NCBI GenBank assembly: GCA_977020255.1
Contig: CDROCS010001076.1
Span: 186,001-250,000, forward strand
Source: Obrimoposthia wandeli
Lineage: Eukaryota
Length of the DNA stretch: 64,000 nucleotides
Direction of reading: 5' to 3'
Notes under the pieces: generated by a model
The model's input: only the letters and a program-made list of their open reading frames with translations
What the model was told of the DNA's origin: nothing
Databases searched by the model: none
Made by a program: the position numbers and the translations under genes
Shown here: positions 41,531 through 42,076 of the stretch, piece by piece
Layout of the letters: each line of letters opens with the position of its first letter
Numbering within the stretch: position 1 is the stretch's first letter

Positions 41531-42076
41531 TTATTCAATTATACAATCTGTTTCGATTTTCTCAATAACATTAACATCATTAAAGGGTCCTAAACTTTTT
41601 GAATAACATATATCAGGTAATTTTACAACAATATCTGATATATATACTTTTCCAATCAATGGTGATGTATCAAAATCAATTTTCTTATTACTAGTTTCAA
41701 TTATTGGTACATTTGAAACATTTAACTTTAAAAGAAATGGACATGTAGGAAAAAATTTCATATGTTGCTTCATTGATTTAAGATGCCATTCCCATTCGGA
41801 TATTGCACCTTGACAGTATATACATTTTACTGTATCGGTTGAAACATCATCATGTTTATAAAATCCGGCTTTTGCTAAATCATATGCAGATTGTTTCCCT
41901 GTAAAATTTATAAATATCGATTTCAATCTTTCACTTTCACGTCTATATTTCACATGTAACACTTTCATTTTAGAATTATCTACTTTTCGTATAACTAAAA
42001 CATCATTAACAATTTTATAATGAAGTATATAATCAACAAGCATTTTTAAAAATTCAAAAAACATATATTTGTTCAT
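41531..42076 (-). CDS. Single-BIR inhibitor-of-apoptosis-like protein (181 aa, intronless)
   Basis: ERLKS...LAKAGFY...VKCIYC...WE...QHMKFFPTCPF: C-X2-C...H-X6-C Zn ligands intact. Confidence 0.88.
   Translation of the reverse strand: MNKYMFFEFLKMLVDYILHYKIVNDVLVIRKVDNSKMKVLHVKYRRESERLKSIFINFTGKQSAYDLAKAGFYKHDDVSTDTVKCIYCQGAISEWEWHLKSMKQHMKFFPTCPFLLKLNVSNVPIIETSNKKIDFDTSPLIGKVYISDIVVKLPDICYSKSLGPFNDVNVIEKIETDCIIE

What the first reader, a model, noticed from the sequence alone, without database searches (positions are those of the whole stretch)
41531..42076. Intact, intronless BIR (IAP-like) gene carried inside a Polinton
Seen: a 181-aa ORF with a complete BIR Zn site, co-oriented with and between the ATPase and the TIR, while the ATPase, integrase and capsid genes are broken. 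Established: IAPs block caspases and are captured by baculoviruses, entomopoxviruses, iridoviruses and ASFV. Inference: anti-apoptotic cargo of a virus-like transposon, indicating an infectious or cell-killing phase; its intactness may reflect selection or domestication.
Basis: partly seen in the sequence, partly recalled or inferred. Interest (0 to 1): 0.7.

Follow-up and report, generated by a model that had tools for sequence, protein, structure and literature searches.

The report
Decayed copy of swapped anti-death gene
This reading frame is only the front half of a broken copy of a likely cell-death-blocking (IAP-type) gene; intact copies ride in over a hundred virus-like transposons of the same genome, were likely swapped between transposon lineages, and are close kin to a gene inside a giant retrotransposon.

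Summary
The 181-aa ORF and its BIR zinc site are real, but the gene is not intact. It is codons 1-170 of a 299-codon BIR/UBA-like/RING IAP. A frameshift at ~41531 cuts it; the rest (41531-41163) holds a stop and a wrecked RING. Changes unique to this copy look neutral (4 synonymous, 16 non-synonymous; omega ~1.05). The gene is standing cargo of the genome's Polintons: 120 of 133 top-scoring full-length hits have no stop, and fetched young copies sit in elements with TIRs and 6-bp TSDs. No Polinton TIR was found in the window. Domestication is not supported; IAPs in Polintons are already published. Function and expression are untested.

The parts
37172..42426 (-). Internally deleted, rearranged Polinton fragment (family B); no TIR, major capsid, protease or pPolB
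   Evidence: blastn to family-B copies at 87-92% over 37172-42237; tblastn map; TIR tests
41534..42043 (-). IAP codons 1-170 (family start codon at 42043; the reported ORF starts 11 codons earlier at 42076)
   Evidence: 84% aa identity to an intact family-A copy; Pfam BIR
41741..41824 (-). BIR zinc site C-x2-C-x16-H-x6-C, complete; non-acidic residue at the XIAP-314 pocket position
41163..41533 (-). IAP codons 171-299 in another frame: frameshift at ~41531, UBA-like region with an in-frame stop at 41436-41438, damaged RING
   Evidence: profile match to the UBA and RING of cellular IAPs
41217..41306 (-). RING remnant: one ligand substituted, two deleted
   Evidence: Pfam zf-C3HC4_3 20.4 bits, below the cut-off of 27, against E 6e-11 in an intact copy
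42097..42236 (-). 3' remnant of a TBP-like gene (two exons in complete elements)
   Evidence: (PF00352 E 4e-9 in L018)
42236..42426 (+). Inverted internal piece from downstream of the family-B protease gene; not a TIR
   Evidence: same junction end (42426) in 8 of 29 other copies
40217..40864 (-). Packaging ATPase, broken (stop in Walker A, 2 frameshifts)
38587..39636 (-). rve integrase, broken near its 3' end (2 frameshifts)
37488..38614 (-). Presumed minor capsid gene, in three frames (label from gene order and recall; no Pfam call)
37172..37447 (-). PX-like small gene (label recalled), cut at its 3' end

Best explanation
The ORF is the first 170 codons of a frameshifted, decaying copy of a BIR/UBA-like/RING IAP gene that intact Polintons of this genome carry as standard cargo, where it likely keeps the host cell alive while the element replicates. 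Shown: the break and decay of this copy; the 299-codon intact form in young elements with TIRs, 6-bp TSDs, ATPase, integrase, capsid, protease and pPolB-type genes; low omega between lineages; far lower synonymous divergence of this gene than of its neighbours between families A and B; end-to-end kinship with the IAP module of a giant env-bearing Gypsy element. Inferred: the A/B similarity reflects a recent recombinational swap of the cassette; the gene passed between the Polinton and retrotransposon lineages (direction open); the intact protein would act mainly as a RING E3 ligase that ubiquitinates death-pathway proteins, because RING and UBA-like parts are conserved while the BIR lacks the acidic IBM-pocket residue. 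The window copy itself most likely does nothing.
For: Two-frame mapping and lesions. Window-only changes 4 S / 16 N on 181 / 686 sites, omega 1.05; omega 0.3 rejected at P 0.013, omega 0.4 borderline at P 0.053. 120 of 133 scored full-length hits free of stops. TSDs in 4 of 4 family-A elements for which both ends were printed. A versus B: IAP dS 0.18-0.19 (0.10 over codons 1-170) against ATPase 1.7-1.8, integrase 0.93, major capsid 1.15, protease 1.8, TBP saturated; DNA identity steps from 68-75% to 91-96% at the IAP start and falls back about 200 nt after its stop. A versus B omega 0.38 in the BIR and 0.22 in the RING. Alignment A1: 74 invariant columns, 38-47% identity to the LTR and family-D forms, shared N-terminal extension and long RING tail. 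Tree: 5 Polinton + 5 LTR + 2 unnamed relatives on one side at 100/99 against 50 cellular IAPs. LTR context: fusion glycoprotein, protease, BIR, RING, protease, RT, RNase H, integrase, phosphatase in one 3110-aa frame. Pocket position non-acidic in 44 of 44 Polinton frames, acidic in 35 of 36 LTR frames and 413 of 455 cellular BIRs.
Against: The 5' part alone holds only 5 private changes (1 S, 4 N), too few to exclude selection on a truncated BIR (P 0.11-0.33). Hit lists are top-scoring subsets, so intact fractions and within-family omega are biased towards intact, conserved copies; pairwise counts are not independent. Family-B shared versus private variants do not differ significantly (omega 0.60 versus 0.91, Fisher P 0.13). 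Cross-family dS values rest on one or two copies per gene. The tree has no flatworm cellular RING-IAP, long branches could pull the mobile sequences together, and three rows have odd composition; AU tests do not fix the inner order (P 0.49 and 0.35; a third test did not finish). The fold of the intact protein was poor (mean pLDDT 40). No functional data.
Confidence: 0.8

Rival explanations
1. One reading: this copy is an intact, selected or domesticated BIR-only gene.
For: Zn site complete and frame open over 170 codons; BIR-core omega 0.72 against family B; the 5' part is underpowered.
Against: Frameshift, stop and RING loss; omega 1.00 against family B over codons 1-170, BIR core no better than B versus B (0.67); 21 of 39 B copies are equally open; chance of no frameshift in 510 nt about 0.41; upstream region deleted and inverted at 42237.
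Confidence: 0.05
2. Origin rival: Polintons and the Gypsy element each captured the same host IAP separately, from a host gene since lost or not found, with no transfer between them.
For: Polinton and LTR sequences are each one clade, neither nested in the other; synonymous sites are near saturation (dS 1.55-1.75); two stand-alone relatives of unknown context branch with them.
Against: Own-genome searches found only survivin-like and probable BRUCE-like host BIR genes: 28 of 30 BIR loci fetched were Polinton-type and 12 of 12 loci fetched with a cellular IAP query were mobile copies. Both forms lack introns. PMC13159474 reports RING-IAPs lost in the Platyhelminthes it sampled (passages). These searches score only the best candidates and can miss a gene split by introns.
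Confidence: 0.3
3. Function rival: the intact gene is kept mainly because it benefits the host (stem-cell survival), as reported for Burro1 B-IAP, and not because of a cell-killing or infectious phase.
For: PMC13465017 cites Lee et al. 2026 for Burro1 B-IAP protecting planarian stem cells from caspase-mediated apoptosis (passages); hundreds of intact copies exist.
Against: Inserted family-B copies decay near neutrally (private omega 0.91), so selection acted on the active masters, not on resident copies; the host is only a probable planarian; the primary paper was not seen.
Confidence: 0.25
4. The IAP is a neutral passenger that hitch-hikes with the element.
For: One Polinton stretch shows TBP followed by ATPase with no IAP hit (L059), so the gene may be dispensable.
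Against: Net omega about 0.28 between A and B; BIR and RING ligands kept across families A, B, D and the LTR at 38-47% identity; cassette shared across otherwise distant lineages.
Confidence: 0.06

Closest known systems
Adintoviruses / animal Polintons with IAP homologues (Starrett et al. 2021, PMC8502044, passages and supplement search; bioRxiv 10.64898/2026.07.28.741253, passages)
   Same: Polinton core genes plus an IAP accessory gene. The 2021 paper states that Bcl2 and IAP homologues were seen in adintoviruses, and a figure legend lists TBP-like genes in related viruses; the preprint lists IAP in leafhopper adintovirus maps.
   Different: The passages seen give no domain structure, selection test, cassette swap or link to LTR elements. 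The supplement text (cut when stored) has 'IAP' twice and no Schmidtea, Dugesia, Girardia or planaria. The window copy is a dead fragment.
Burro / GYPSM1 giant Gypsy elements of planarians and Burro1 B-IAP (PMC6431247 section 7 read; Lee et al. Dev Cell 2026 known only through passages of PMC13465017)
   Same: BIR and RING inside a giant polyprotein with env in frame between gag and pol; this genome's element has that layout and its IAP module is the nearest relative, among the sequences held, of the Polinton genes.
   Different: The window gene is a stand-alone ORF of a DNA element, has lost the second BIR and the acidic pocket residue. No Burro1 sequence was available, so orthology to B-IAP is untested.
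Cellular BIR-UBA-RING IAPs (cIAP1/2, XIAP, DIAP1) and baculoviral IAPs
   Same: BIR, UBA-like and C-terminal RING in the same order (best PDB hit cIAP1 3t6p, E 5e-18; profile probability 99.95%).
   Different: One intact BIR only, non-acidic residue at position 314, RING tail about five residues longer than the cellular one, no introns; forms its own branch. Baculoviral IAPs were not compared by name.

Membership tests
Polinton/Maverick (family A, intact elements) | TIRs beginning AG and ending CT, 6-bp TSD | tested here: met
   TIR ~550 bp; TSD in 4 of 4 elements with both ends printed
Polinton/Maverick (family A, intact elements) | rve integrase, A32-like ATPase, adenain-like protease, capsid genes | tested here: met
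   rve E 3e-12, Pox_A32 E 1e-6; Peptidase_C5 E 0.007 and Capsid_N E 0.025 are weak, below cut-off
Polinton/Maverick (family A, intact elements) | Protein-primed PolB | tested here: inconclusive
   The 962-aa N-terminal part scanned gave only Endonuclease_7; it aligns with window pPolB remnants whose downstream frames hit DNA_pol_B_2; the catalytic part of family A was not scanned
Polinton/Maverick (window copy) | TIRs, TSD, pPolB, major capsid | tested here: not met
   Absent from 37172-42426; the piece is an 87-92% identical deletion derivative of family B
IAP / BIRP | BIR domain with CCHC zinc site | tested here: met
RING-containing IAP (intact family gene) | C-terminal C3HC4 RING and UBA-like region | tested here: met
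   RING E 6e-11; UBA-like by profile alignment and a weak cIAP1 match, no Pfam UBA hit
RING-containing IAP (window copy) | RING in frame with the BIR | tested here: not met
Type II (IBM/caspase-binding) BIR | Pocket residues L307, W310, D/E314, E/Q319, W323 (PMC6360406 passages) | tested here: not met
   L307, W310 and Q319 kept; 314 non-acidic in 44 of 44 Polinton frames; 323 is F. Sequence test only
Anti-apoptotic IAP | Blocks caspases or cell death; E3 activity | not testable with these tools
   needs bench assays
Burro1 B-IAP | Orthology to the B-IAP module of Burro1 | not testable with these tools
   No named Burro1 sequence found; primary paper not held; domain layout of the genome's LTR element fits Burro

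The most novel reading that the evidence does not exclude
In a host lineage that has lost its own RING-type IAP, one IAP gene survives as a shared good of the mobile gene pool: it moved between a giant env-bearing LTR retrotransposon and virus-like Polintons, is still being swapped as a cassette between distant Polinton lineages, was doubled into 4-kb terminal repeats in one family, and has retuned its BIR pocket in the Polinton branch, so that Polintons are a second source of the stem-cell-protecting activity described for Burro1.
Probability: 0.3. Interest if true: 0.8.

Novelty: new variant of a known kind. Interest (0 to 1): 0.48.

Why it matters
The locus itself is an ordinary dead transposon fragment, and IAPs in Polintons are in print. 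The family behind it matters more. A cargo gene with five- to ten-fold lower synonymous divergence than its neighbours is direct sequence evidence that Polinton lineages trade accessory genes. Its kinship with a Burro-like retrotransposon module links a class I and a class II element through one apoptosis regulator. If the host is a planarian, knockdowns aimed at B-IAP may leave, or co-silence, a second high-copy IAP source, and the question of who controls cell death in an animal without its own RING-IAP becomes testable. The Polinton/LTR sharing was already noted once in this scan, so only the swap, the terminal-repeat doubling and the pocket change are additions.

Tried and rejected
Local retrocopy insertion: rejected. 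Natural TBP-IAP fusion: the two are in one open frame in L018 and L045 only; offsets vary among copies and young family-A copies have a stop between them; rejected as chance. TIR at 42236-42426 or 36000-37175: rejected. Expression: no RNA holder listed; no evidence either way. Laying 4 contig runs of one sample on 40900-42500 gave only short pieces, no listed indel at 41531 and no piece shown to bridge it: inconclusive on assembly error. AlphaFold with a 6-row alignment: mean pLDDT 40, not used beyond noting four helices at 175-225; no fold search run. Relatives in viral and metagenome contigs: none confirmed. Word-based protein searches found only distant IAP and Mind-bomb-type proteins. Host placement by a BBS5 exon: about 51-63% identity to everything, no near relative; uninformative. 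Protein atlas unavailable. Direction of transfer: AU tests uninformative. Tree rows left out: 59 of 109 eligible cellular rows (the least similar), proteins over 700 aa, the host survivin- and BRUCE-like genes (no RING), and 70 of 80 mobile frames as near-duplicates. Ten literature searches listed no paper on a Polinton-LTR shared IAP or an IAP cassette swap; the library lacks most subscription papers, including Lee et al. 2026, which may cover it, and bioRxiv supplements were not seen.

Full report
Observation. The ORF at 41531-42076 (-) exists and is 181 aa. It carries a Pfam BIR domain (E 9e-13) with all four zinc ligands. The next frame, 40905-41435, holds a weak RING (20.4 bits, below cut-off), which suggested one broken gene.

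The gene is broken. A search of the window's own genome (1.35 Gb) returned 150 matches of 150 scored, from 15,056 first-look candidates, at 79-100% identity. A near full-length copy as query returned 133 full-length matches, 120 without a stop; these are top scorers, so the share is biased upward and the count is a lower bound. The intact gene has 299 codons: BIR (E 2e-13), a UBA-like region and a RING (E 6e-11). It maps to the window in two frames, residues 1-170 and 172-299. The window copy has a frameshift at ~41531, a stop at codon 203, a 15-nt deletion in the RING and 3 of 8 RING ligand positions lost. The reported ORF is thus the 5' part.

No sign of selection on this copy. Changes found only in the window copy are 4 synonymous and 16 non-synonymous on 181 and 686 sites, omega 1.05; omega 0.3 is rejected (P 0.013), 0.4 is borderline (P 0.053). 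Against 38 family-B copies omega is 1.00 over codons 1-170. The 5' part alone has 5 private changes and cannot exclude selection (P 0.11-0.33). 21 of 39 family-B copies are open over codons 1-170 and 5 of 39 over the whole gene. At the window's frameshift density, a clean 510 nt has probability 0.41.

The element. The Polinton piece runs from 37172 to 42426: TBP-like remnant, IAP, ATPase, integrase, presumed minor capsid, PX-like gene (the last two labels rest on gene order and recall). It is 87-92% identical to family-B copies. Major capsid, protease and pPolB are missing. No family A or B TIR matches its ends; 42236-42426 is an inverted internal piece and both flanks are other repeats. Young family-A elements are about 15 kb, mostly 93-98% alike, with ~550-bp TIRs and 6-bp TSDs in 4 of 4 elements with both ends printed, and the order ORF(-), TBP-like, IAP, ATPase, integrase, capsids, protease, pPolB-type gene.

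Selection and swap in the active lineages. Family A versus B omega is 0.40 (BIR 0.38, RING 0.22), about 0.28 after subtracting within-family divergence (pairs are not independent). The IAP differs between A and B by dS 0.18-0.19, whereas ATPase, integrase, major capsid and protease differ by 0.9-1.8 and TBP is saturated (one or two copies per gene). DNA identity jumps from 68-75% to 91-96% at the IAP start and drops again about 200 nt past its stop. Purifying selection does not spare synonymous sites this much, so a recent cassette exchange is the likely cause (inference). Against this reading of steady selection, shared and private variants within B do not differ significantly (P 0.13).

A clade of mobile IAPs. 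A third Polinton family (D) has a 333-aa form, 47% identical, placed with the TBP-like gene inside ~4-kb inverted repeats, so 2 of 2 elements examined carry two copies. A giant Gypsy element (150 of 150 scored matches at 98-100%) has a 378-aa module, 38% identical, in a polyprotein with a mononegavirus-type fusion protein, two proteases, RT, RNase H, integrase and a phosphatase. This fits the Burro elements of planarians (PMC6431247 section 7), so the host is probably a planarian; a BBS5 search could not confirm it. The second BIR erodes from LTR to D to A/B. Among the best 150 of 12,717 profile hits in 1.84 billion proteins, two unnamed stand-alone proteins match in one stretch from end to end (P0055, P0078). 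In a 62-row tree all these lie on one side of a 100/99 branch against 50 cellular IAPs, with the Polinton forms one clade (96/93). No flatworm cellular RING-IAP is in the tree, long-branch pull is possible, and AU tests leave the direction open. In the own genome, 28 of 30 BIR loci fetched were Polinton-type; the other two are a survivin-like and a probable BRUCE-like host gene (the BRUCE label is from recall); 12 of 12 loci fetched with a cellular IAP query were mobile. PMC13159474 reports RING-IAPs lost in Platyhelminthes, with no mention of planarians (passages).

How it likely works. The intact protein keeps BIR, UBA-like and RING parts, so E3 ligase action on death-pathway proteins is the likeliest role (inference from cIAP/DIAP1 biology, recalled). 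The position equal to XIAP residue 314, part of the acidic IBM pocket (PMC6360406 passages; alignment), is non-acidic in 44 of 44 Polinton frames, acidic in 35 of 36 LTR frames and in 413 of 455 cellular BIRs (the Polinton frames include a few duplicates). Direct caspase capture is therefore less likely for the Polinton form. Because resident copies decay while masters are conserved, the benefit most likely goes to the replicating element. Host benefit, as cited for Burro1 B-IAP (PMC13465017 passages; primary paper not held), stays a real rival. Nothing here shows particles, infection or expression (one search listed no RNA holder).

Known versus new. IAP in Polintons is in print (PMC8502044; bioRxiv 10.64898/2026.07.28.741253); PMC11131425 passages do not mention it. 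Ten searches listed no report of the Polinton-LTR link or of a cassette swap, within a library that lacks most subscription papers.

Verdict. Observation partly confirmed, interpretation partly supported. The locus is a dead fragment; the family is a new variant of a known kind. Interest 0.48; the boldest reading has probability about 0.3 and would merit 0.8.

Noticed in passing
L155:1756-5908 / L156:1888-6040 and L157:2241-6207 / L158:2182-6147: Polinton family D with ~4-kb, 99.7-99.9% identical inverted repeats that each contain an ORF, the IAP and the TBP-like gene; no pPolB hit between them, and the core is in opposite orientation in the two elements.
   Followed up: partly
L031:8477-8965, L058:3519-3970, L155:4481-4956: TBP-like gene in two exons with a short GT-AG intron in Polinton families A, B and D.
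   Followed up: partly
L161:3-9332: Burro-like Gypsy polyprotein with a Monjiviricetes-type fusion protein, two aspartic proteases flanking the IAP module, and a dual-specificity phosphatase after the integrase; open frames up to 5262 aa elsewhere.
   Followed up: partly
window 4542-8423 and 20776-24659: Near-identical ~3.9-kb duplication 16.2 kb apart that joins a piece of the Gypsy element (75% to L161) to the integrase of a family-D-like Polinton.
   Followed up: partly
window 22064-30190: Second decayed Polinton (+), 88% to family D over integrase to protease, followed by pPolB remnants.
   Followed up: no
window 9983-12729 and 33453-34221: A separate pPolB remnant (-), and a homologue of the small ORF that sits next to the TIR in families A, B and D.
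   Followed up: no
L059:2599-4056: Polinton stretch with TBP-like gene followed directly by the ATPase and no IAP hit.
   Followed up: no
window 15675-17069: RPA1-like OB-fold frames (Pfam REPA_OB_2, Rep_fac-A_C); host gene or transposon cargo not determined.
   Followed up: no
window 59830-60258: BBS5 exon, only about 60% identical to any relative found.
   Followed up: partly
L105:1381-1872 and L106:1450-1686: Probable host BIR genes: survivin-like (Pfam E 2e-22) and BRUCE-like (label from recall).
   Followed up: partly
L163:4890-7607: Family-A copy in which the ORF and TBP-like gene are inverted relative to the IAP.
   Followed up: no
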